Assembly (NCBI GenBank): GCA_001790095.1
Contig: MGBH01000001.1
Span: forward strand, 120,001-152,000
Source of the DNA: Candidatus Saccharimonadota bacterium
Lineage (GTDB): Bacteria > Patescibacteriota > Microgenomatia > UBA1406 > GWC2-37-13
Reading direction: 5' to 3'
Length of the DNA stretch: 32,000 bases
Of this stretch, positions 7,710 to 26,404 are shown piece by piece. The first letter of the stretch is position 1, and every line of letters starts with the position of its first letter. The notes beneath the pieces are model-generated. The model had not been told where the DNA came from and made no database searches. It saw only the letters and a list, made by a program, of their open reading frames with translations. A program made the position numbers and the translations under genes.

Positions 7710-7955
7710 TTAGTTTTTATCGGCTTCATTTAATTCTTTATCTATATCTTCTAATTCTTCCTGAAGAGCTTTTTTATAGTCTTTAATATCTTCTTTAGAC
7801 CAAGCTTGAGCTCCACAATAGAATCGATTAAGGCCTCTTCGCATACCTCTTCCAAAACCCTGTCCTAAACCTCTACTTTTTCCTCCGCATCGACCCATAC
7901 CTCGTCCTGTCATTGATCCGGTTCCTGTTGGTCCTGTTCCATCAAATGCTGGCAT
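7710..7955 (-). CDS. DUF5320-family small protein
   Basis: 81 aa. Gly-rich N-terminus MPAFDGTGPTGTGSMTGRGMGRCGG and coiled C-terminus. Strong SD (GGGGGTGAA) upstream; usual partner of DUF134. Confidence 0.8.
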   Translation of the reverse strand: MPAFDGTGPTGTGSMTGRGMGRCGGKSRGLGQGFGRGMRRGLNRFYCGAQAWSKEDIKDYKKALQEELEDIDKELNEADKN

Positions 7956-7996
7956 AGTTTATTCACCCCCGAATCTAGTATAACTAATAATATAGT

Positions 7997-10921: not shown

Positions 10922-10988
10922 GCAGTTTTAATTGGGTTTGAATCTATTTGCCCCGCTCTTATATAGAATGTTGTGGTGGGTAAAAGCC

Positions 10989-11020
10989 CGAACCCTTTAC
11001 ATATAAATTTAGAATAGTAA
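10989..11020 (-). repeat. degenerate outlying copy of the island repeat core
   Basis: CGAACCCTTTACATATAAATTTAGAATAGTAA resembles the core GAACCTTTTACGTWCAAATTTAGTATGGTAA. Lies 8 nt downstream of the CBS gene stop. Confidence 0.4.
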
Positions 11021-11027
11021 CTTTTGA

Positions 11028-13885: not shown

Positions 13886-14014
13886 CTACTTTGCATTCTT
13901 TACTTCCGGTTTTGAAGCAACATCTTTTGCGGCGATTTCTGTCTTTTTTACTTCCTCACCGATTTTAGCTGTTGCAGGCTTTATTTCTTCCTTTTTATCT
14001 TTATATTCCATCAT
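13886..14014 (-). CDS. 42-aa Lys/Glu-rich micro-protein (not in the ORF track)
   Basis: Hand translation: MMEYKDKKEEIKPATAKIGEEVKKTEIAAKDVASKPEVKNAK. Strong SD GGGGGGTGA about 8 nt upstream, the same SD style as the DUF5320 gene. The opposite-strand track ORF 13878..14060 has no SD. Confidence 0.45.
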   Translation of the reverse strand: MMEYKDKKEEIKPATAKIGEEVKKTEIAAKDVASKPEVKNAK

Positions 14015-14061
14015 GTTTTTTTCACCCCCCATTCAGTACTTTAATGTTTTGATAATCTAAA

Positions 14062-15275: not shown

Positions 15276-16727
15276 ATGAAGAGAAAAATCATATGGAAAC
15301 ATCTAATGAGCAGAAGGTGGACAATCCTTCGTACTGAACTATTTACCAAGGGTTACGTAGAGCCACTAAAAAATTATATTGGTATTCCCAATAGAGAATT
15401 GTTAGTAACTAAAGAATTGGAAACAAGTTCTCTTTACAATAGTTTGGATAGCATGAATGAAATCTCGTTGGCACTATTGAATAAATTAAAGAATGATAAA
15501 GATTTTGGCTTACGTATTTATAAAGACTGCATTAAATCTTGCGAATATCTTGTACAAGTTTCCAAAGATGTATCTCAAGGGAACTTTAAATCCCTTTCTT
15601 CACAGACTCTTGTAAAAATTTTTGATATTTATGTAGATACAGCTTTAAACTTCACACCATTTTTAGCACTTCCTCCTAATTACGAAATGTATATTATTGA
15701 TGAGATAAATCAGAGCCTGGTTGAAAAAGTGGGAGACAGTAAGTCTGAAGAATATCTCCAAAAACTAATGAGTCTCAAAGAATACCCCTTTCAAATGCTA
15801 GAACAGATAGATTTAGCAAATATTGCATTAAGAATAAAACTTAAAACTGATATCAATAAAGCATTGATAGTTCATAAGCGCAAATACCAATGGTTATCCT
15901 GTTACAACTTTGATGAGGTAGAATTTTCATTAGAAGACTTCAAGAAAAGGTTAGAGATTCTACAGGAACTTTCTTTTTCAGAACTTAGTAACAAGGTTAA
16001 TTGTATGATTGAAAAGCTAAATTCGGACAAAAATGAGTTTCAGAGAGTTATAAATAAGCTTGGTTTGTCAAACGGACTAATAAATAAGATAAAGTTGTTG
16101 AGAGAGTTTGTTTTTCTAAGAACCTATAGGATTGAGATGAATTCCCAGTCCAATTTCTATCTCAAGCCCCTTTTAAGAGAAATTTCAGAACGGGGAAATA
16201 TATCGGTCAGGCAACTTGCTATGATGCTGTCTGATGAAATTAAAACAATGCTATTAGAAGGAAAAGTTCCAAATTCCGTAAACTTCAAAGATAGGGAGAA
16301 ATATGCAGTGTTTTGGTTACATAATGCAAAATATCATTATGCTTTTGGTTCTAAAGCAAAAAAGGTTATTTCAAAACAGATCGTTGACGTGAAAAAAGGC
16401 AACCAAGCTTTATTTGTAAAAGGGACAACCGCCTCACTTGGAAAGATAATTACTGGGAACGTAAGACTAGTAAACAAACATAATATGAGCGAATTTAAAA
16501 AAGGAGAAATCTTGGTTACTACTATGACTTCTCCAGAATTAGTTCCAGCTATGCATAAAGCTGCTGGGATTGTGACTGATGAGGGAGGTGTCACTTGTCA
16601 TGCGGCTATAGTATCCAGAGAATTTAACATTCCATGCATTGTGGGAACAGGTAACGCGACCAAAGTATTTAAAGATGGAGATTTTATTGAAGTTAATACC
16701 GAATTTGCTACAGCAAAAATTATATGA
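15276..16727 (+). CDS. PEP-utilising-enzyme mobile (swivel phospho-His) domain protein, copy 1, with unrecognised N-terminal region
   Basis: 483 aa. C-terminal GEILVTTMTSPELVPAMHKAAGIVTDEGGVTCHAAIVSREFNIPCIVG is a canonical PF00391-type swivel domain. The N-terminal ~390 aa are helical, with no ATP-grasp motifs seen. Confidence 0.85.
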   Translation: MKRKIIWKHLMSRRWTILRTELFTKGYVEPLKNYIGIPNRELLVTKELETSSLYNSLDSMNEISLALLNKLKNDKDFGLRIYKDCIKSCEYLVQVSKDVSQGNFKSLSSQTLVKIFDIYVDTALNFTPFLALPPNYEMYIIDEINQSLVEKVGDSKSEEYLQKLMSLKEYPFQMLEQIDLANIALRIKLKTDINKALIVHKRKYQWLSCYNFDEVEFSLEDFKKRLEILQELSFSELSNKVNCMIEKLNSDKNEFQRVINKLGLSNGLINKIKLLREFVFLRTYRIEMNSQSNFYLKPLLREISERGNISVRQLAMMLSDEIKTMLLEGKVPNSVNFKDREKYAVFWLHNAKYHYAFGSKAKKVISKQIVDVKKGNQALFVKGTTASLGKIITGNVRLVNKHNMSEFKKGEILVTTMTSPELVPAMHKAAGIVTDEGGVTCHAAIVSREFNIPCIVGTGNATKVFKDGDFIEVNTEFATAKII

Positions 16728-18427: not shown

Positions 18428-18519
18428 ATAAAATAAATTATAACAAAAAATAGGTTGGGTTAAAAAAAGGTATAAACGACGAAGTTTATTTGAATGTTTT
18501 TAAGATCTAAAACCTGAAA

Positions 18520-18576
18520 GTCCAGAGCAATGGAGATTACTCGAACCTTCTACGTACTAATTTAGCATGGTAAATT
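18520..18576 (-). repeat. island repeat copy R1 (57 nt)
   Basis: GTCCAGAGCAATGGAGATTACTCGAACCTTCTACGTACTAATTTAGCATGGTAAATT. Ends 9 nt from the stop of 18585..19163. Confidence 0.8.
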
Positions 18577-18584
18577 TCCAATTT

Positions 18585-19680: not shown

Positions 19681-20120
19681 ATTATTTTCACCAACCTTTC
19701 ATAAAATTCAATTTATAAGTCTTCGTTATTTCTCTATTTCTAAAGGTATTGTACGAATAAAGCAGGTATTAAACAGTCATTCCGCTTTCTTTTATTACGT
19801 AATCCAACTCACACAAATTAAGTAAGAAAGAATAGACCGAATAGTTTTTCCTCCCATGGTGATTTTGAAATATCTTTCCCTTCTGGTTGCGTCAGTTTTT
19901 GATAAATAGCATTTACAAAATAGTAGAGTAAATGGACCAGGATTTTGTATTCAGTTTCTCCACTTTATTTGTTTCTGGAGAAATTATCGCTTTTAGAGCC
20001 CCTTTATTTACATGAAAATAAACATTTTCATATAGGTATTTCAACGGTATTTTACATGATTAAGAACAAAAAATAACAATAAAACAAGCAAAGGTAAAGC
20101 TTCATGCTCAGCAAATTAAT

Positions 20121-20149
20121 TTGAAAGTAATATACTTATAGTATATAAT
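20121..20149 (+). promoter_or_regulatory. near-consensus promoter TTGAAA-N17-TATAAT placed for a leaderless transcript of the 430-aa gene
   Basis: -35 at 20121..20126 and -10 at 20144..20149. The ATG at 20156 begins 7 nt after the -10 and there is no room for an SD. Confidence 0.55.
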
Positions 20150-20155
20150 TACAGG

Positions 20156-21448
20156 ATGGATAGTCAAGAACGAAAGACACCAAGTAGTTATGATTCAGCT
20201 TCAATATCAGGGTTGGATTTAACCACTAAGTATCCAAATGCAGTTACGCATTTTAAAGGTGGAGAGTTTAGATTTGCTCATGGTAATCCACGTGCGCACT
20301 TTGCGTGTATGACAATAGCCTTGGGAGGAACTGGTGAAGGCTATAGAGAATGGTATGATGGGCAAATCAGGGATTTTAACGCTTTGAGGGAGGAGTTAGG
20401 ACTACCCCGTGAGCTTTCATACTATCTTTCCCGACTTGCACGGCCCGTCTTTACCGAGGGTGGTGGTTTTGTAAGATTAAACATATTTGACATGTATAAG
20501 TTGTTATATCACGCACCAGCCGAATTTAAACACGAAATGGAAGCACGATTATTGGATACAGCCAGATTATCTAAGGCGTTAATAGGCAAGGGATGTGAAT
20601 TACCCCCTATTGGTGGAATTAGTCTTTCATGTGAAACGAGATATGGTTTTCAAGAGGGAACTGTAGATATAATATTTAGCGCTGACACTCCTCCTGAAGT
20701 AGAAGCAGCTGCTGATGTTGAAATAAAGATAAAAAAACCTAAAAAAGAACACCTCTCTTTTATACCTGAAAGGCATAAGGTGCGCAACTTAATCCCAAAG
20801 AGACTGCCCCTATGGGCTGTAAGGTTGGTACCAGAGGAAGGTGGCGATGGGAATGTGAGGATTGGGATACATGCAAGTCAAAGGATAGTGGAAGAAACCG
20901 GCACTATACCAATACGAGCAGCTCACATTTTAGCTGCATTTCCAAGAGACAAGGATAAGGACCTGGTAATACCAGGAGACAATACTTCAATGATAGAAAA
21001 TGTAAGAAAATTACTTCTAGCATTTGGTTCCTCAAAAAAAGGTTTAGATAGGGCTATTTTATCTGTAGCTAATTTAGATGAATCAATAGATCCAAAGGTT
21101 GTGCCGTATTTGTACATTCTAAGTGGAATTCCGGGAACGTATATTGTTAAACGTATTGAACAAGCTTTAAACGGATTTCCATTTGAAGAATTTACGTTAA
21201 TTTTGGCGATCCAAATGTTGCAAAAAATGGGGTACAAAAATCTATATGCAATAGGCAAACCCAACTCAGTTTTTAGTCGTTATTTAGATCCAATTGAAGC
21301 GTATCCCTATTCATTCGGTTTGTTTCATGCAGGCACTGCTCTTGGATTATCCGAGCAAGGAAGAGAAAGACTTTTTCAATGTGGATTTGCGCCGGTTGAA
21401 ATTTTGTTAGAGAGTCAAAAAACACCAATAAAAAAAGTATACAGATAA
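20156..21448 (+). CDS. 430-aa orphan protein, no family recognised
   Basis: Long ORF in an otherwise minus-strand block. The 5' two thirds are visibly more GC-rich than the surroundings. I found no motif I can name. Confidence 0.7.
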   Translation: MDSQERKTPSSYDSASISGLDLTTKYPNAVTHFKGGEFRFAHGNPRAHFACMTIALGGTGEGYREWYDGQIRDFNALREELGLPRELSYYLSRLARPVFTEGGGFVRLNIFDMYKLLYHAPAEFKHEMEARLLDTARLSKALIGKGCELPPIGGISLSCETRYGFQEGTVDIIFSADTPPEVEAAADVEIKIKKPKKEHLSFIPERHKVRNLIPKRLPLWAVRLVPEEGGDGNVRIGIHASQRIVEETGTIPIRAAHILAAFPRDKDKDLVIPGDNTSMIENVRKLLLAFGSSKKGLDRAILSVANLDESIDPKVVPYLYILSGIPGTYIVKRIEQALNGFPFEEFTLILAIQMLQKMGYKNLYAIGKPNSVFSRYLDPIEAYPYSFGLFHAGTALGLSEQGRERLFQCGFAPVEILLESQKTPIKKVYR

Positions 21449-21480
21449 TTCCTTTCGCCAATATCCTAAACAATAAATAT

Positions 21481-21536
21481 TCAGAGCGATGGAAAACGCT
21501 CTAACCTTCTACGTATAAATTTAGTATAGTAAATTT
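21481..21536 (-). repeat. island repeat copy R2
   Basis: TCAGAGCGATGGAAAACGCTCTAACCTTCTACGTATAAATTTAGTATAGTAAATTT. Contains the 6-bp hairpin AGAGCG/CGCTCT. Ends 5 nt from the stop of 21542..22783. Confidence 0.75.
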
Positions 21537-21541
21537 GATTA

Positions 21542-22783
21542 TTAACTCATTCTGTTTTTTATTTCTTCTTCCACTTGATCGATAGGTTTACCATATCTCA
21601 TTTGAGAATCATTTTTAAACTTAGTGAGATTAACAGTATTTTCTTGATTGTTCTCTTTGGTTGTATTAATTTTTTTTATTTCAGTAATACTTCCGTTTTC
21701 TAAGGTTTTCAAAATTGCATGAAATTTCTTGAGTTCTGATATAGTTTTTATATCAATACCTATTACCTGAGAAATATCTTCAATATCATCTTTTATTGAT
21801 CTAAACATCACAATTGTGCCAGATCTTAAAACCTCATATTTTAATAAGGAATTTATTTGTTTCGCTCGAGACGATAATATTGTAATTGCAAGATTGTATA
21901 GACCGCTATATCGCATTAAGTCTATAATTACTTGAGGATTCCATAACCCAACTTCGTCTATATATAAAGATATTTGAACTTTTGATGTTATTCGAATATT
22001 TCTGAATAAAGTTAATAATTTTGAGAACAGTAATGAACTTATAATTCTATTAGCTTCTTTATCGTAATAATATTCGCTAAAATCGAGTAAAATTGTTTTT
22101 TTATCCTGGATTAGTTGTTGAAAGTTAACTGTATCATCAGATTGACATACTATATTTCTTAATCTTTTGTCAGACACAAATCTACTAAATTTTGACACGA
22201 TGTAATCAAGCACTTCAGACTTATGAAAATCAGAGGTTTGGGTAATTTGTTTAGTCCAATAGTTTTTGACTATCGGATCAGTAATTTTTTCAACTAGTTT
22301 ATTTACATAAATACTGTCAGTAAGACATCTCAATAATTCAAGAAACGTTGGCTTTTTATCATAAAAAATGGTCATTATTGCATTTCTTACTGCATGATCA
22401 AATCGAGGACCAATAACACCCGTTCTTTGAGGATCGTAGAGATCATACATTAATTTGAGTACTACATTTGCGACCTCTTTTTTATCAAATTCGTTTTGTG
22501 CTTGAAATATATTTAAGCCAACAGGAAGTTTTTCATTCCACACATTTATGTAGACAATATTTTTAAGCGCTGCTTCAGACGCATTACTAATGATTCTATT
22601 GGATAAGTTTCCATAAGGATCGATGACGACTGATGGCTGCCTTGCTATAATATCCTGCATTATTAAATCAGAAAAATAATGAGTAATACCGTTTCCTGGA
22701 AGTCCAGTAATAAAGGTGTTTCTTAGTCTATCTAATGATGATAATTCAATAGCAGTTTTTTTATCAAGAAGAATGTTCGTCAT
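21542..22783 (-). CDS. HerA/FtsK-VirD4-like P-loop NTPase with degenerate Walker A
   Basis: 413 aa. ITGLPGNGITHYF occupies the Walker A position (Ile where Lys is expected), VVIDPYGN matches the DUF87/T4CP pattern, and Walker B-like SLYIDEVG is present. Confidence 0.7.
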   Translation of the reverse strand: MTNILLDKKTAIELSSLDRLRNTFITGLPGNGITHYFSDLIMQDIIARQPSVVIDPYGNLSNRIISNASEAALKNIVYINVWNEKLPVGLNIFQAQNEFDKKEVANVVLKLMYDLYDPQRTGVIGPRFDHAVRNAIMTIFYDKKPTFLELLRCLTDSIYVNKLVEKITDPIVKNYWTKQITQTSDFHKSEVLDYIVSKFSRFVSDKRLRNIVCQSDDTVNFQQLIQDKKTILLDFSEYYYDKEANRIISSLLFSKLLTLFRNIRITSKVQISLYIDEVGLWNPQVIIDLMRYSGLYNLAITILSSRAKQINSLLKYEVLRSGTIVMFRSIKDDIEDISQVIGIDIKTISELKKFHAILKTLENGSITEIKKINTTKENNQENTVNLTKFKNDSQMRYGKPIDQVEEEIKNRMS

Positions 22784-22923
22784 ACGTTTAAAAAGAACTG
22801 ATAATTTTCATTATATAAAATAAGAAGTTAACTATCTATTAGGTTCGAACCCTTGGTTTGAATTTATATAACAAGGAAACTTATTCAATTTACTTATTTG
22901 AGTTCATTCTTATTTTATTAAAT

Positions 22924-22970
22924 CTTCCCAAGTTAGAACCTTTTACGTTCAAGTTTAGTATGGTAAATTT
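22924..22970 (-). repeat. island repeat copy R3
   Basis: CTTCCCAAGTTAGAACCTTTTACGTTCAAGTTTAGTATGGTAAATTT. The last four codons (NLPY) and the stop of 22955..23998 lie inside the repeat. Confidence 0.75.
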
Positions 22971-23998
22971 CTTTTTAAGATTGTGACGATTCCTTTATCT
23001 GCGTTTACTTCAACTAAATCTCCATTTTGTAATACTTCTGACGCATTTTTTGTTCCTACAATACAGGGCTTTTTAAACTCTCTTGCAATGATTGCCGCAT
23101 GACAGGTAATTCCACCCTCATCAGTAATAATTGCAGCTGATTTCTTCATCACAGGGACAAAATCAGGCATTGTCATGGGCGAGACAAGAATTTCACCTTT
23201 TTTGAAATCATTCATATGCTTCAATGCCATAACTTTACGTACTAGTCCTTTAGCACATCCAAGAGAGGCAGCGTTTCCTTTAATATGTGTAATTTTTTTA
23301 GAAGAGTGAGATAAATTTAGTTTTATGTTATATTTTGATTCAACAAGCTCTAACTGCTCTGGTCGAAATAGTATTTCATTTGTGAATATAAATCCTTTTG
23401 CTCGGCGACGGAGTTCTTCTAAAGAGGGTATTTTATCTGATCGAATTTCTTCAATTGTTAAAACTTGAGAGTATTCGGCGACATTAGAGTAAATTTGTCT
23501 TAGAGACTCCCGGATTAAATTATCCAAATCATCCGTGAGTGTGACGGTTGATTTTTTTAATTCCAGTATTTGAGATACGTTAAGTCCTACCAGCTTTTCA
23601 AGGTCTGATTCTCCAATTTCCCACATAGGTAATAACCATCGGTATGCGCTTTGGAACAAATCTAAAAAAAGCAGTAGTTCTTCTTTATCTAATATTACCT
23701 TTTTGCTTAAATAGTTATTTATATATTCTAAATCAGAAATAACGTGTGATTTAATTTCTTGAATAAAGTTTTTGTCTTTTTTTACTTGATTTAATGTTGA
23801 ATTGCGAGACCAATTTAATCCATCTATGTCGTAATAACTTGTAACAGTATCATCGTGACGAATAAATACAACGTATGGAAAAGATTTATTTAATTGGTTA
23901 TTCCAAGGTTTGGGAGTTTTTGCTTCACCTTTATACCATATTTCCAGCCAAGGCATAGTAAATTCTCTTGTAAATATTTTTTCGTATAGTTTTTTCAT
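22955..23998 (-). CDS. PEP-utilising-enzyme mobile (swivel) domain protein, copy 2
   Basis: 347 aa. C-terminal GEILVSPMTMPDFVPVMKKSAAIITDEGGITCHAAIIAREFKKPCIVG. The N-terminal region is unrecognised. Confidence 0.85.
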   Translation of the reverse strand: MKKLYEKIFTREFTMPWLEIWYKGEAKTPKPWNNQLNKSFPYVVFIRHDDTVTSYYDIDGLNWSRNSTLNQVKKDKNFIQEIKSHVISDLEYINNYLSKKVILDKEELLLFLDLFQSAYRWLLPMWEIGESDLEKLVGLNVSQILELKKSTVTLTDDLDNLIRESLRQIYSNVAEYSQVLTIEEIRSDKIPSLEELRRRAKGFIFTNEILFRPEQLELVESKYNIKLNLSHSSKKITHIKGNAASLGCAKGLVRKVMALKHMNDFKKGEILVSPMTMPDFVPVMKKSAAIITDEGGITCHAAIIAREFKKPCIVGTKNASEVLQNGDLVEVNADKGIVTILKRNLPY

Positions 23999-24146
23999 TG
24001 AATTGAATTTGATTTATTAAGTTCATATTTAATACGAGTCATATTTGATACATTATATCAATTTGGTTCGAACCCTCCGTTTAAATCGTTTGGACAAGTA
24101 AAACAACTCTATTTTTTGTTTTAGTCTAGTCTTCTTGTTCAAAGTT

Positions 24147-24191: not shown

Positions 24192-24206
24192 TAGTGCTTT
24201 AATTTT

Positions 24207-24236
24207 TCTTCTATCCTAAGTCAAGAGGGGAGGATT
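24207..24236 (-). repeat. near-exact duplicate of the tRNA-Tyr 3' end plus 3' flank (att-like)
   Basis: TATCCTAAGTCAAGAGGGGAGGATTC (24211..24236) versus TATCCTGAGTCCAGAGGGGAGGATTC (25988..26013): 24/26 identical, same orientation. Confidence 0.75.
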
Positions 24237-24340
24237 CACGTTCGTCACCTCGTTCCTCAGTACTAACTGCCAGTAATCCTCACTTCGTATCGGAAACTGG
24301 CAGTTGAGCGAACCTCTACGGTTCTCATCCTTAAAATGCA
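24237..24340. other. GC-rich structured island of unknown nature (candidate ncRNA or recombination-site remnant)
   Basis: Perfect 10-bp stem AACTGCCAGT/ACTGGCAGTT around a 21-nt loop. Local GC is clearly above the AT-rich intergenic background. Abuts a strong terminator. Confidence 0.35.
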
Positions 24341-24341
24341 T

Positions 24342-24373
24342 AAAAAAAGACAGCACTTCGGCTGTCTTTTTTT
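24342..24373. terminator. bidirectional intrinsic terminator
   Basis: A7-GACAGC-ACTTCG-GCTGTC-T7, a GC-rich stem flanked by A and T runs. Lies 55 nt downstream of the HAD gene stop. Confidence 0.75.
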
Positions 24374-24377
24374 ATGA

Positions 24378-24434
24378 GTCCAGAACAATGGAGAGTATCA
24401 GAACCTTTTATGCTCAAATTTAGTTCAATTAAAT
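24378..24434 (-). repeat. island repeat copy R5
   Basis: GTCCAGAACAATGGAGAGTATCAGAACCTTTTATGCTCAAATTTAGTTCAATTAAAT. Overlaps the stop of the HAD gene. Confidence 0.75.
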
Positions 24435-25025: not shown

Positions 25026-25076
25026 TAAATAAATTATATCAAGAAGGTTCGAACGTCGTTCATTCGTCTTGTCAAA

Positions 25077-25133
25077 GTCCAGAGCAATTAAGGGCGTTAG
25101 AACCTTTTATGTACAAATTTAGTATGGTAAATT
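25077..25133 (-). repeat. island repeat copy R6
   Basis: GTCCAGAGCAATTAAGGGCGTTAGAACCTTTTATGTACAAATTTAGTATGGTAAATT; 45/57 identical to R1 by hand alignment. This is the only strong copy not at a gene 3' end. Confidence 0.8.
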
Positions 25134-25182
25134 ACATGCCTAGCTAATCGGAGCACAAATCCATTATGTAATTAAAATTATG

Positions 25183-25888: not shown

Positions 25889-25996
25889 TAGATTGAGGTG
25901 AATTATATAGATAAACTAGACTGTCATTGCCTAACGATTCGCTATTCACATAATGAATATATGAAATAACTGAAAGGAGTATTCTTTTATCCTGAG

Positions 25997-26079
25997 TCCA
26001 GAGGGGAGGATTCGAACCTCCGTAGGGAAAACCCAGCAGATTTACAGTCTGCCCCCGTTGGCCACTTGGGTACCTCTGG
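25997..26079 (-). tRNA. tRNA-Tyr: tRNA-Tyr (anticodon GTA), class II long variable arm, CCA not encoded
   Basis: Hand fold: acceptor CCAGAGG/CCTCTGG, U8 A9, D-stem CCC/GGG, anticodon stem GCAGA/TCTGC with loop CTGTAAA, variable arm GGG-TTTT-CCC, T-arm GGAGG-TTCGAAT-CCTCC, discriminator A. Confidence 0.9.
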
Positions 26080-26091
26080 TTGATCTACTAA

Positions 26092-26343
26092 TTATATTAA
26101 ATTTTTTGATTGAATGCTCTTTTTTTCCAAATATCCCTTCGGACTCTTGAGATAAAATTCTCTCTTATAAGCTTTCTTTTTTTCTTCAAATTTCTCTTTA
26201 TAAATTATTTTCCACGGTCTAAAAGGCTTCGTTGATTTTGTCCATCCGGCGTTATGATCTTTAATTCTTTTTTCTAGATTCGATGTAACCCCTATATAAA
26301 ATCGATTTACAACCCCACTTTTTAAAATATAGACATAATACAT
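26092..26343 (-). CDS. small GIY-YIG nuclease-family protein
   Basis: Start moved to MYYVYILKSG (ATG at 26343); the 13-codon extension in the track ORF reads through the tRNA-derived duplicate. Motifs YVYIL...FYIGVT...R...E are present. Confidence 0.85.
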   Translation of the reverse strand: MYYVYILKSGVVNRFYIGVTSNLEKRIKDHNAGWTKSTKPFRPWKIIYKEKFEEKKKAYKREFYLKSPKGYLEKKSIQSKNLI

Positions 26344-26355
26344 ATAAGTAATACG

Positions 26356-26404
26356 CCGTTGGCCAAGCCGAAGGCTACCCATTGGGTCTTGGGTACCTCT
26401 GGTT
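26356..26404 (-). repeat. partial duplicate of the tRNA-Tyr 5' end (acceptor and D-arm) with a 22-nt insertion
   Basis: CTTGGGTACCTCTGGTT at 26388..26404 is identical to 26065..26081 (17/17). CCGTTGGCCA at 26356..26365 is identical to 26055..26064. The two blocks are separated by AGCCGAAGGCTACCCATTGGGT. Confidence 0.8.

What the first reader, a model, noticed from the sequence alone, without database searches (positions are those of the whole stretch)
20121..21448. Compositionally foreign 430-aa orphan gene with a leaderless-type promoter
**No recognisable family.** I found no catalytic or fold motif I can name in the ORF.

**Composition.**
- Two 60-nt lines in the 5' part count 31/60 and 33/60 G+C (20281..20340 and 20401..20460).
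- A line near its 3' end counts 18/60 (21001..21060).
- A line in the neighbouring ATPase gene counts 15/60.
- So the 5' two thirds look recently imported or mosaic.

**Expression signals.**
- A near-consensus TTGAAA-N17-TATAAT sits so that the ATG begins 7 nt after the -10, with no SD. This predicts a leaderless mRNA.
- Neighbouring genes use strong GGAGG/GGGGGTG SDs.
- The 330-nt upstream spacer carries two perfect 8-bp inverted repeats: TTTCTCCA...TGGAGAAA at about 19963..19991 and ATGAAAAT-AAAC-ATTTTCAT at about 20012..20031.

**Context.** The gene is the lone plus-strand ORF of the island. It converges on the degenerate ATPase gene, separated from it by a copy of the 57-nt repeat.
Basis: partly seen in the sequence, partly recalled or inferred. 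Interest (0 to 1): 0.7.

Follow-up and report, generated by a model that had tools for sequence, protein, structure and literature searches.

The report
Rare-family gene with typical leaderless promoter
This is a real, resident gene of a Roizmanbacteria (CPR) genome that encodes a soluble protein from a very rare, uncharacterised family; its extra G+C comes from its amino-acid make-up, and its "leaderless" promoter layout is the normal layout for genes in this genome, so it is less odd than it first looked.

Summary
The ORF (20156..21448, +, 430 aa) is real. It is the NCBI hypothetical protein A2334_04670 of Candidatus Roizmanbacteria RIFOXYB2_FULL_38_10.

- **Family.** It has no Pfam, NCBIfam, PHROG, PADLOC or PDB match. 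It is not a strict orphan: a full scan of 1.84 billion representatives found five distant relatives of 370-405 aa. Where labelled, these are Microgenomates or Pacebacteria.
- **Structure.** The AlphaFold model is mediocre (pLDDT 53) and has no Foldseek match. The biochemical function stays unknown.
- **Composition.** GC3 (z=-0.1) and synonymous codon choice (z=-0.5) are typical of the genome. "Compositionally foreign" is not supported.
- **Promoter.** TTGAAA-N17-TATAAT followed by 6 nt and then ATG is present.
- **Contrast with neighbours.** This contrast is wrong. None of 34 window ORFs has a usable SD. Of 54 genes in the window and its flanks, 21 carry a -10 box 3-10 nt before the start codon, most often 6 nt.
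- **ATPase link.** None was found in five relatives' contexts or beside the ATPase's 75%-identical ortholog.

Overall this is an ordinary resident gene of a rare lineage-restricted family.

The parts
20121..20149 (+). Sigma-70-type promoter: -35 box TTGAAA (20121-20126), 17-nt spacer, -10 box TATAAT (20144-20149).
   Evidence: It is the best promoter-like site in the 3.8-kb scan, matching 11 of 12 positions. Only 5 sites this good occur in the whole window on both strands, against 2.0 +/- 1.4 in simulated sequence. Its function has not been tested.
20156..20158 (+). ATG start codon and predicted transcription start, giving a leaderless mRNA. Six nt (TACAGG) separate it from the -10 box.
   Evidence: Read directly from the sequence. 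An in-frame TAA at 20117-20119 leaves no start codon further upstream. The transcription start itself is inferred, not measured.
20156..21448 (+). Coding sequence of the 430-aa soluble protein (NCBI A2334_04670, OGK62122.1 and identical entries).
   Evidence: Distant relatives show that it is a real gene. No membrane-spanning segment is predicted: the maximum Kyte-Doolittle score over 19 residues is 1.13, and the pI is 8.4.
20156..20530 (+). N-terminal region (residues 1 to about 125). It is poorly conserved among relatives and about 20-30 residues longer here. It contains the two GC-richest lines.
   Evidence: Alignment A1. GC line counts. The model has pLDDT below 50 over most of this region.
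20531..20941 (+). Conserved central region rich in beta strands (residues about 126-262). Its motifs are G-x-x-EG, PLW-x-VR and QRI. A lineage-specific insertion spans residues about 178-215 (20687-20800).
   Evidence: Alignments A1 and A4. The model predicts strands 146-252 with pLDDT 60-86.
21092..21415 (+). Conserved C-terminal helical region (residues 313-420). Its motifs are YL-x3-IPG, I-x2-IE, IQ-x-LQ-x-LGY and H-x-G-x2-LGL.
   Evidence: This is the region matched best by phmmer. Invariant columns are listed.
21466..21536 (-). Copy of a 40-70-nt intergenic repeat family, filling most of the 93-nt gap between the converging stop codons.
   Evidence: Six copies lie in the window, all in the same orientation and each just 3' of a minus-strand gene.
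21481..21504 (-). Hairpin TTAGAGCG-N8-CGCTCTGA followed by a T-rich run on the minus strand. It looks like a terminator for the ATPase gene. It is also the only GC-rich stem available to stop the plus-strand transcript.
   Evidence: On the plus strand the spacer folds no better than shuffled sequence (z=-0.44).
19955..20031 (.). Upstream inverted repeats: TTTCTCCA/TGGAGAAA (19955-19983) and ATGAAAAT-AAAC-ATTTTCAT (20012-20031).
   Evidence: Both are present, but their number is no greater than chance: 3 observed against 0.8 expected, P=0.09.

Best explanation
The locus is an ordinary, resident, single-gene transcription unit of a roughly 1.2-Mb Candidatus Roizmanbacteria (Microgenomates, CPR) chromosome.

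**Shown**
- A near-consensus sigma-70 promoter (20121-20149) ends 6 nt before the ATG.
- The gene has no SD sequence.
- The ORF encodes a soluble 430-aa protein. It has a variable N-terminus, a conserved central part rich in beta strands, and a conserved helical C-terminal part.
- The protein belongs to a very small family of 370-430-aa proteins. Where members are labelled, they come only from Microgenomates or Pacebacteria.
- The family matches no described family and no solved or viral predicted structure.
- The extra G+C sits at codon positions 1 and 2 and reflects an Arg/Gly/Pro/Ala-rich protein. Synonymous sites look native.

**Inferred**
- Transcription starts at or next to the A of the ATG.
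- The mRNA is translated as a leaderless message. This appears to be the default in this genome: 39% of 54 nearby genes have a -10 box 3-10 nt before the start codon, most often at 6 nt, and almost none have an SD.
- The transcript ends in the 93-nt convergent spacer.

**Function (inference only, low confidence)**
- The protein most likely acts on its own in the cytoplasm as an accessory enzyme or binding factor. It is probably not a mobile-element, defence or secretion component.
- My best guess, at about 0.2, is a nucleic-acid- or nucleotide-related role. In relatives the gene is translationally coupled to tyrS and followed by recG, or is followed by a NUDIX gene, or follows a Pol X fragment.
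For: **Identity and source genome**
-.

**No known family**
- Pfam, NCBIfam, PADLOC and PHROGs gave no hit for this protein or for the five relatives.
- PDB sequence and profile searches gave nothing better than E of about 0.2.

**Relatives**
- Five remote relatives were found among 1.84 billion representatives, at E 2.5e-6 to 7e-4.
- They align over residues about 130-420 with shared motifs.
- Labelled members are Microgenomates or Pacebacteria.

**Composition**
- GC1 z=+1.15, GC2 z=+3.44 (rank 1 of 34), GC3 z=-0.11.
- Synonymous-codon log-likelihood z=-0.47.
- R, G, P and A are each enriched 1.5- to 2-fold.

**Promoter and leaderless layout**
- Promoter geometry.
- None of 34 window ORFs has an SD, and 10 of 34 have a -10-like hexamer 3-10 nt upstream, against a 6.4% background (p=4e-5).
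- In 20 further genes from the flanks, 11 have such a hexamer and 1 has an SD. Many read TGnTATAAT-N6-ATG.
- Pooled, this is 21 of 54 genes (p=6e-12), with the commonest distance at 6 nt.

**No mobile-element signal**
- There is no phage or plasmid relative.
- No viral contig encodes a relative.
- No direct repeats flank the gene.

**Stable in the population**
- The gene has the same context in all 24 contigs read. The only variant seen differs by one residue.

**Contexts of relatives**
-.
Against: - No transcription start data exist. The promoter and the leaderless start are predictions from sequence alone.
- The family is so sparse and divergent (27-34% identity) that vertical descent cannot be told apart from old transfer among CPR lineages.
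- No other Roizmanbacteria genome in a 15-billion-protein collection has an ortholog. In contrast, the neighbouring ATPase has a 75%-identical ortholog and hundreds of relatives.
- The gene is the local GC maximum and the only plus-strand gene in a low-GC stretch.
- The functional guess rests on three unrelated gene neighbourhoods and on no catalytic motif.
Confidence: 0.7

Rival explanations
1. The gene, or its 5' two-thirds, was recently imported by horizontal transfer into an island, and it brought its own promoter with it.
For: - It has the highest GC of its neighbourhood: 39.3%, against 29-33% for adjacent genes.
- It has no ortholog in any other Roizmanbacteria, only distant relatives of 27-34% identity in other Microgenomates.
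- It is the lone plus-strand gene, behind an unusually long 475-nt upstream spacer.
- Fragments of a tRNA-Tyr gene and a GIY-YIG gene lie 3-5 kb away.
- The ATPase's ortholog in a sister lineage has a different convergent partner.
Against: - GC3 (0.278 against a mean of 0.284) and synonymous codon choice cannot be told apart from the other 33 ORFs. Two other ORFs reach the same total GC of 0.392.
- The block-wise GC pattern shows no 5'/3' boundary.
- There is no integrase, transposase, flanking direct repeat, or phage or plasmid homolog.
- The promoter layout is the native one for this genome.
- An old, fully ameliorated transfer cannot be excluded.
Confidence: 0.15
2. The gene is a functional partner of the adjacent degenerate VirD4/TraD-like ATPase. 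Together they would form a two-gene accessory module, for example one related to secretion, conjugation or defence.
For: - The two genes converge with only 93 nt between them, and the gap holds a shared hairpin and repeat.
- The ATPase belongs to the CPR family of type IV secretion coupling-protein-like ATPases and has lost its Walker A lysine: GLPGNGIT in place of GKTGTGKS.
Against: - Convergent genes cannot be co-transcribed.
- None of the five relatives' neighbourhoods contains such an ATPase.
- ATPase orthologs at 75% and 43% identity have no relative of the target gene nearby.
- Neither protein hits PADLOC.
- The ATPase family has more than 350 members, while the target family has six clusters.
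Confidence: 0.04
3. The gene is a very divergent member of an already known enzyme or fold family that the tools available here could not detect. In that case it is not novel at all.
For: - The alignment has only six sequences, so the profile is weak (Neff 2.6). The model is mediocre.
- CPR proteins are often highly divergent versions of known families; this is general knowledge, not tested here.
Against: - All HMM and profile searches were empty, even at E up to 1-10.
- Foldseek against PDB and BFVD gave a best E of 0.09 and TM-scores of at most 0.15 normalised to the query.
- No classic catalytic signature is conserved: no P-loop, no HxH or DxD pattern, no Cys cluster.
Confidence: 0.3

Closest known systems
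Uncharacterised Microgenomates/Pacebacteria hypothetical proteins (cluster of P0002/P0130: KKT31829.1, KKU01751.1, OGJ41575.1, HAX01097.1; also metagenomic P0004, P0005, P0006 and the frameshifted P0003)
   Same: - They are of similar length (370-405 aa).
- They share the same order of conserved blocks over residues about 130-420: GIxEG, PLWxVR, QRI, YLxxxIPG, IQxLQxLGY and LGL.
- They are soluble and have no Pfam domain.
   Different: - Identity is only 27-34%.
- The window protein has a longer, unrelated N-terminus and a 38-residue insertion.
- It lacks the roughly 20-residue segment carrying the SLSxHR motif that is present in the other members.
- Every member sits in a different genomic context.
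Leaderless genes of bacteria with extensive leaderless transcriptomes. An example is Mycobacterium tuberculosis (Cortes et al. 2013, seen only as a reference in PMC12641261); Deinococcus is cited from my own knowledge.
   Same: A -10 box lies about 6-7 nt upstream of an ATG, there is no SD, and a purine sits at the predicted transcription start.
   Different: - There is no transcription start mapping here.
- The organism is a CPR bacterium.
- I found no report of widespread leaderless genes in CPR in the held library.
- The one relevant paper reports loss of the anti-SD motif only in a subgroup of Parcubacteria, not in Microgenomates (PMC9297842).
Taxonomically restricted (orphan-like) genes and horizontally acquired island genes
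   Same: The gene has a patchy distribution, no annotated function, and locally deviant total GC.
   Different: Synonymous-site composition and promoter layout are native, and no mobility genes or att-type repeats flank the gene.

Membership tests
Leaderless bacterial mRNA gene | A -10 promoter element ends about 5-8 nt upstream of the start codon. | tested here: met
   TATAAT at 20144-20149 with the ATG at 20156, a 6-nt gap. A -35 box TTGAAA lies at 17-nt spacing.
Leaderless bacterial mRNA gene | No Shine-Dalgarno sequence and no usable 5' UTR. | tested here: met
   There is no SD core within 20 nt upstream. An in-frame stop at 20117-20119 rules out upstream starts. No downstream candidate start preceded by an SD was found.
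Leaderless bacterial mRNA gene | The mapped transcription start coincides with the first base of the start codon. | not testable with these tools
   This needs dRNA-seq or 5' RACE on the organism or on a metatranscriptome.
Recently acquired genomic-island gene | Atypical synonymous codon usage or GC3 relative to the host genome. | tested here: not met
   GC3 z=-0.11 and codon log-likelihood z=-0.47 against 33 other ORFs. Only 32 kb of the genome served as the reference.
Recently acquired genomic-island gene | Flanking mobility genes, att-type direct repeats or a tRNA insertion site. | tested here: inconclusive
   Nothing flanks the gene itself. However, duplicated fragments of the tRNA-Tyr gene lie at 24206-24237 and about 26350-26402, with a GIY-YIG gene 2.8-5 kb away.
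Recently acquired genomic-island gene | Patchy distribution, with the gene absent from close relatives. | tested here: met
   No ortholog was found outside this one population, and the nearest relatives are 27-34% identical. Close relatives are only sparsely sampled.
Any curated protein family (Pfam-A, NCBIfam, PHROGs, PADLOC) | Score above the family threshold, or E below 1e-3. | tested here: not met
   No family matched the protein. Its five relatives gave only chance-level hits, E of 0.058 or more, in Pfam, PHROGs and NCBIfam.
Module with a VirD4/TraD-like coupling ATPase | The two families co-occur in the same neighbourhood across genomes. | tested here: not met
   None of five target-family contexts has the ATPase. 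Neither of two ATPase-ortholog contexts has a relative of the target.
PEP synthase / PPDK-type partner (an N-terminal ATP-grasp domain for the two nearby PEP-utilizers proteins) | Sequence or profile similarity to PPDK_N, or to the N-terminal parts of the neighbouring PEP-utilizers proteins. | tested here: not met
   There is no Pfam PPDK_N hit. hhalign against both neighbours gave probabilities below 1%.
Rare Microgenomates 370-430-aa family (P0002-P0006) | Shared conserved blocks in the same order over the central and C-terminal regions, with significant sequence similarity. | tested here: met
   phmmer E values were 2.5e-6 to 7e-4 against 1.84 billion sequences. The alignments show 9-20 invariant columns.

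The most novel reading that the evidence does not exclude
The protein would be the Roizmanbacteria representative of a truly new, Microgenomates-restricted protein family. It would have a fold and activity unrelated to anything described. It would be expressed as one instance of a leaderless, SD-independent gene-expression regime that dominates this CPR genome and has not, as far as I could find, been reported for Microgenomates.
Probability: 0.3. Interest if true: 0.45.

Novelty: new member of a known kind. Interest (0 to 1): 0.27.

Why it matters
- **The gene itself.** It adds one more lineage-restricted protein of unknown function to the many that CPR genomes carry. It shows no sign of recent import or of an unusual expression mechanism, so its value is modest.
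- **The re-reading.** Splitting GC by codon position shows a protein-composition effect rather than a foreign origin.
- **The context.** This is the more interesting part. In 52 kb of this Roizmanbacteria genome almost no gene has a Shine-Dalgarno sequence. About 40% of genes have a -10 box, often TGnTATAAT, exactly 6 nt before the ATG. If transcript mapping confirms this, a CPR bacterium with a reduced ribosome would rely mainly on leaderless translation. That bears on how translation initiation evolved in this radiation.

Tried and rejected
- **Family searches.** Pfam, NCBIfam, PADLOC and PHROGs were empty for the protein; Pfam, PHROGs and NCBIfam gave only chance-level hits for its five relatives.
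- **PDB searches.** A sequence search, a whole-protein profile and two domain profiles gave only noise, such as phycocyanin at E 0.2-1.3.
- **Word-indexed homolog search.** The single sequence and the family profile recovered only the protein itself and P0006.
- **Structure.**
  - The single-sequence AlphaFold model was useless (pLDDT 36).
  - The six-sequence model reached pLDDT 53 and pTM 0.56.
  - Foldseek against PDB and BFVD found nothing at E below 0.09.
- **Collection scans.**
  - The viral scan found no relative.
  - A second genome scan found one locus.
  - The metagenome scan found two loci.
- **Phage and plasmid tblastn** found nothing.
- **Link to the PEP-utilizers neighbours** was rejected by hhalign.
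- **A 428-aa unknown protein near an ATPase homolog (L013)** is unrelated.
- **Structured RNA.** Rfam found nothing in the upstream spacer or the 3' spacer. The 3' spacer folds no better than shuffled sequence.
- **Upstream inverted repeats as operators.** Their number is at chance level.
- **Flanking direct repeats as insertion scars.** None were found.
- **Literature on leaderless or SD usage in CPR.** Nothing was directly relevant except the report of anti-SD loss in some Parcubacteria.
Full report
**What is there**

The window comes from the roughly 1.2-Mb chromosome of Candidatus Roizmanbacteria bacterium RIFOXYB2_FULL_38_10 (GCA_001790045.1, MGBF01000001.1). The ORF at 20156..21448 (+) encodes a 430-aa protein deposited as hypothetical protein A2334_04670. 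The same protein in the same context was found on all 24 contigs read. The only variant seen differs by one residue, A15D. The finding's start coordinate, 20121, is the -35 box of the promoter, not the start of the gene.

**Checking the observation**

Confirmed:
ATPase lines count 13-24/60.
- TTGAAA-N17-TATAAT occupies 20121-20149. Six nucleotides (TACAGG) separate it from the ATG at 20156.
- An in-frame TAA at 20117-20119 leaves no start codon further upstream.
- The site matches 11 of 12 consensus positions. Only five such sites occur in the whole window on both strands, against 2.0 +/- 1.4 in simulated sequence. A site this good at exactly leaderless distance is therefore unlikely to be chance.
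- The second inverted repeat is at the coordinates given.
- A copy of the intergenic repeat lies at 21466-21536, between the converging stop codons.
- The gene is the only plus-strand ORF between 17.5 and 25 kb.

Corrected:
- The first inverted repeat lies 8 nt to the left of the coordinates given.
- Three perfect 8-bp inverted repeats in the 475-nt spacer, against 0.8 expected (P=0.09), is not beyond chance.

**Composition**

- Total GC is 39.3%, against a mean of 34.8% (sd 2.8) for ORFs in the window. Two other ORFs reach 39.2%.
- Split by codon position: GC1 0.497 (z=+1.15), GC2 0.404 (z=+3.44, rank 1 of 34), GC3 0.278 (z=-0.11).
- The log-likelihood of its synonymous codon choices, under the pooled usage of the other ORFs, is ordinary (z=-0.47).
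- Arg, Gly, Pro and Ala are each 1.5-2 times more frequent than in the other proteins.
- The GC excess is therefore a property of the encoded protein, not of a foreign mutational background.
- Block-wise GC and GC3 fluctuate without any boundary between the 5' and 3' parts. Two of nine blocks have GC3 of 0.42 or more, where 5.9% of blocks in other ORFs do, which is not significant.
- "Compositionally foreign or mosaic" is not supported. An old, fully ameliorated transfer cannot be excluded.

**Expression signals in context**

That contrast does not hold.
- None of the 34 window ORFs of at least 100 aa has an SD core 4-13 nt upstream of its start.
- Allowing any alternative start in the first 60 codons yields only a few scattered internal matches.
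- GGGGGTG-N8-ATG precedes only two small ORFs, 6 and 12 kb away. One is a DUF5320-family protein of 81 aa (Pfam assignment) and the other a 48-aa ORF.
- Ten of the 34 ORFs have a -10-like hexamer ending 3-10 nt before the start codon, against a 6.4% background (p=4e-5).
- I fetched about 20 kb more of the same genome on either side of the window. Eleven of 20 further genes show the same layout, many as TGnTATAAT-N6-ATG, and only one has an SD.
- Pooled, 21 of 54 genes have this layout (p=6e-12). The commonest distance is 6 nt, which is the target's own geometry.
- The leaderless-type layout is therefore real, but it is this genome's default and not a mark of foreignness.
- I found no paper in the held library that describes this for CPR. 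The closest reports loss of the anti-SD motif in a subgroup of Parcubacteria only (PMC9297842).

**The protein**

- No Pfam, NCBIfam, PADLOC or PHROG family matched, and no PDB sequence did.
- The word-indexed search of 5.8 billion clusters found only the protein itself.
- The exhaustive phmmer scan of 1.84 billion representatives found five relatives at E 2.5e-6 to 7e-4, each 372-405 aa, plus a fragment.
- They align over residues about 130-420 with shared blocks: G-I-x-E-G, P-L-W-x-V-R, Q-R-I, Y-L-x3-I-P-G, I-x2-I-E, I-Q-x-L-Q-x-L-G-Y and H-x-G-x2-L-G-L.
- The N-terminal 125 residues and an insertion at about 178-215 are specific to this protein.
- Labelled members come from "Microgenomates group bacterium" and Candidatus Pacebacteria/Paceibacterota.
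- The proteins are soluble (no hydrophobic segment) and have pI values of 6.2-9.1.
- AlphaFold2 with the six-sequence alignment gave pLDDT 52.9 and pTM 0.56. The model has N-terminal helices, a seven-strand sheet (residues 146-252, pLDDT 60-86) and a helical C-terminal part.
- Foldseek against PDB and BFVD found nothing better than E=0.09, with TM-scores of at most 0.15 normalised to the query.
- Domain-level profiles against PDB were also empty.

**Genomic context of relatives**

No neighbourhood is conserved.
- **P0006:** it sits between an aldo-keto reductase gene and a NUDIX gene. The NUDIX gene is 43 nt downstream on the same strand.
- **The Pacebacteria gene:** it follows tyrS and precedes recG. 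The tyrS stop codon overlaps a candidate internal ATG start (Met16) of the gene by one base, so the two may be translationally coupled; the longest ORF starts 45 nt further upstream, inside tyrS.
- **P0004:** it lies between DUF4256 and a CARDB-domain protein.
- **P0005:** its neighbours have no annotation.
- **The L007 copy:** it is frameshifted and lies between what I read as a Pol X fragment and a LemA-like gene. I identified both from their sequences by eye, with no tool check.
- None has a VirD4-like ATPase neighbour.
- From the other side, the window's ATPase belongs to the large CPR family of type IV secretion coupling-protein-like ATPases. It falls in a subclade that has lost the Walker A lysine: GLPGNGIT in place of GKTGTGKS.
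- The ATPase's 75%-identical ortholog converges on a ribonucleotide reductase gene. A 43%-identical homolog also has no relative of the target nearby.

**Mobile-element tests**

- There is no phage, plasmid or viral-contig relative.
- No direct repeats flank the gene.
- No integrase or transposase lies within 10 kb on either side.
- Duplicated fragments of the tRNA-Tyr gene and a GIY-YIG gene lie 2.8-5 kb away. They do not bracket the target.

**Interpretation**

Best explanation (0.7): this is a resident single-gene unit that encodes a member of a rare, Microgenomates-restricted, uncharacterised protein family. It is transcribed from its own sigma-70 promoter and translated without a leader, as is usual in this genome. 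Its GC excess comes from its amino-acid composition.

The biochemical function is unknown. The protein is soluble, stands alone, and has conserved polar residues (E168, R224, Q243/R244, Y320, E335, Q353/Q356, H391). From this I infer a cytoplasmic enzyme or binding protein that acts on its own. I lean weakly, at about 0.2, towards a nucleic-acid or nucleotide-related role because of the tyrS/recG, NUDIX and Pol X neighbours of relatives.

Rivals:
- Recent horizontal import: 0.15.
- Partner of the degenerate ATPase: 0.04.
- Undetected divergent member of a known fold: 0.3. This rival is compatible with the main explanation.

**Verdict**

The gene is an ordinary, if unannotated, lineage-restricted gene. 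The more notable result is the genome-wide promoter layout without SD sequences and with the -10 box next to the ATG, seen in passing.

Noticed in passing
window 1-32000; L014 12029-20953; L015 400-9335: Genes in this genome almost never have an SD sequence (1 of 54). About 39% have a -10 box 3-10 nt before the ATG, most often at 6 nt and often as the extended form TGnTATAAT-N6-ATG. This suggests a mostly leaderless transcriptome in a Microgenomates (CPR) bacterium. I found no report of this in the held literature.
   Followed up: partly
window 10986-11023, 18507-18577, 21466-21536, 22932-22969, 24377-24434, 25064-25134: A family of 40-70-nt intergenic repeats has six copies, all in the same orientation. 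The minus-strand consensus is AAATTTACCATACTAAATTTGTACGTAAAAGGTTCGAGC..TCTCCATTGCTCTGGACTTT. Five of the six copies start at or within about 10 nt after the stop codon of a minus-strand gene. The sixth (25064) lies about 40 nt upstream of the start of the 24429..25025 gene. One copy (24377) is followed by a canonical terminator at 24340-24366, so the element appears to lie in 3' UTRs. It has no Rfam match and no conserved hairpin.
   Followed up: partly
window 24206-24237, 25996-26079, about 26350-26402: The last 18 nt of the tRNA-Tyr gene (minus strand) plus about 14 nt of trailer are duplicated 1.78 kb downstream. The duplication brackets a HAD hydrolase gene and a Crp-like gene. The first 25 nt or so of the tRNA are duplicated just upstream of a GIY-YIG endonuclease ORF (26092-26382) that abuts the tRNA. 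These look like scars of insertions at the tRNA gene.
   Followed up: partly
window 21542-22783 (-): The neighbouring 413-aa protein belongs to the CPR VirD4/TraD-like ATPase family. It falls in a subclade of roughly 40 listed relatives (about 40-75% identical) in which Walker A is degenerate (GLPGNGIT, with no lysine) while Walker B (DE) is kept. It is probably a paralog that cannot hydrolyse ATP.
   Followed up: partly
window 7710-7970 (-) and 13886-14030 (-): Only two small ORFs carry a strong SD-like GGGGGTGA-N8-ATG: an 81-aa DUF5320-family protein and a 48-aa Lys/Glu-rich ORF. SD-dependent initiation may therefore be reserved for a few small genes.
   Followed up: no
window 20130-20167: The promoter spacer contains a perfect 6-bp palindrome, ATATAC-N5-GTATAT (20130-20146). 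A 10-of-12 promoter-like site on the minus strand (TTGACT-N16-TATACT, 20167..20140) overlaps the gene's start. This could be a divergent promoter or an operator.
   Followed up: no
window 22833-22891 and 24056-24114: A two-copy 59-nt repeat at 71% identity contains GGTTCGAACCC, which resembles a tRNA T-arm. It lies in the intergenic regions upstream of the ATPase gene and of the PEP-utilizers gene.
   Followed up: no
window 15276-16727 (+) and 22955-23998 (-): Two proteins carry only the PEP-utilizers swivel domain at the C-terminus, behind N-terminal regions that match no family. They flank the region.
   Followed up: no
L006 7674-8891; L007 486-1675: In Pacebacteria the stop codon of tyrS overlaps a candidate internal ATG start (Met16) of the target's homolog by one base, and recG follows. 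The metagenomic copy in L007 is split by a frameshift.
   Followed up: partly
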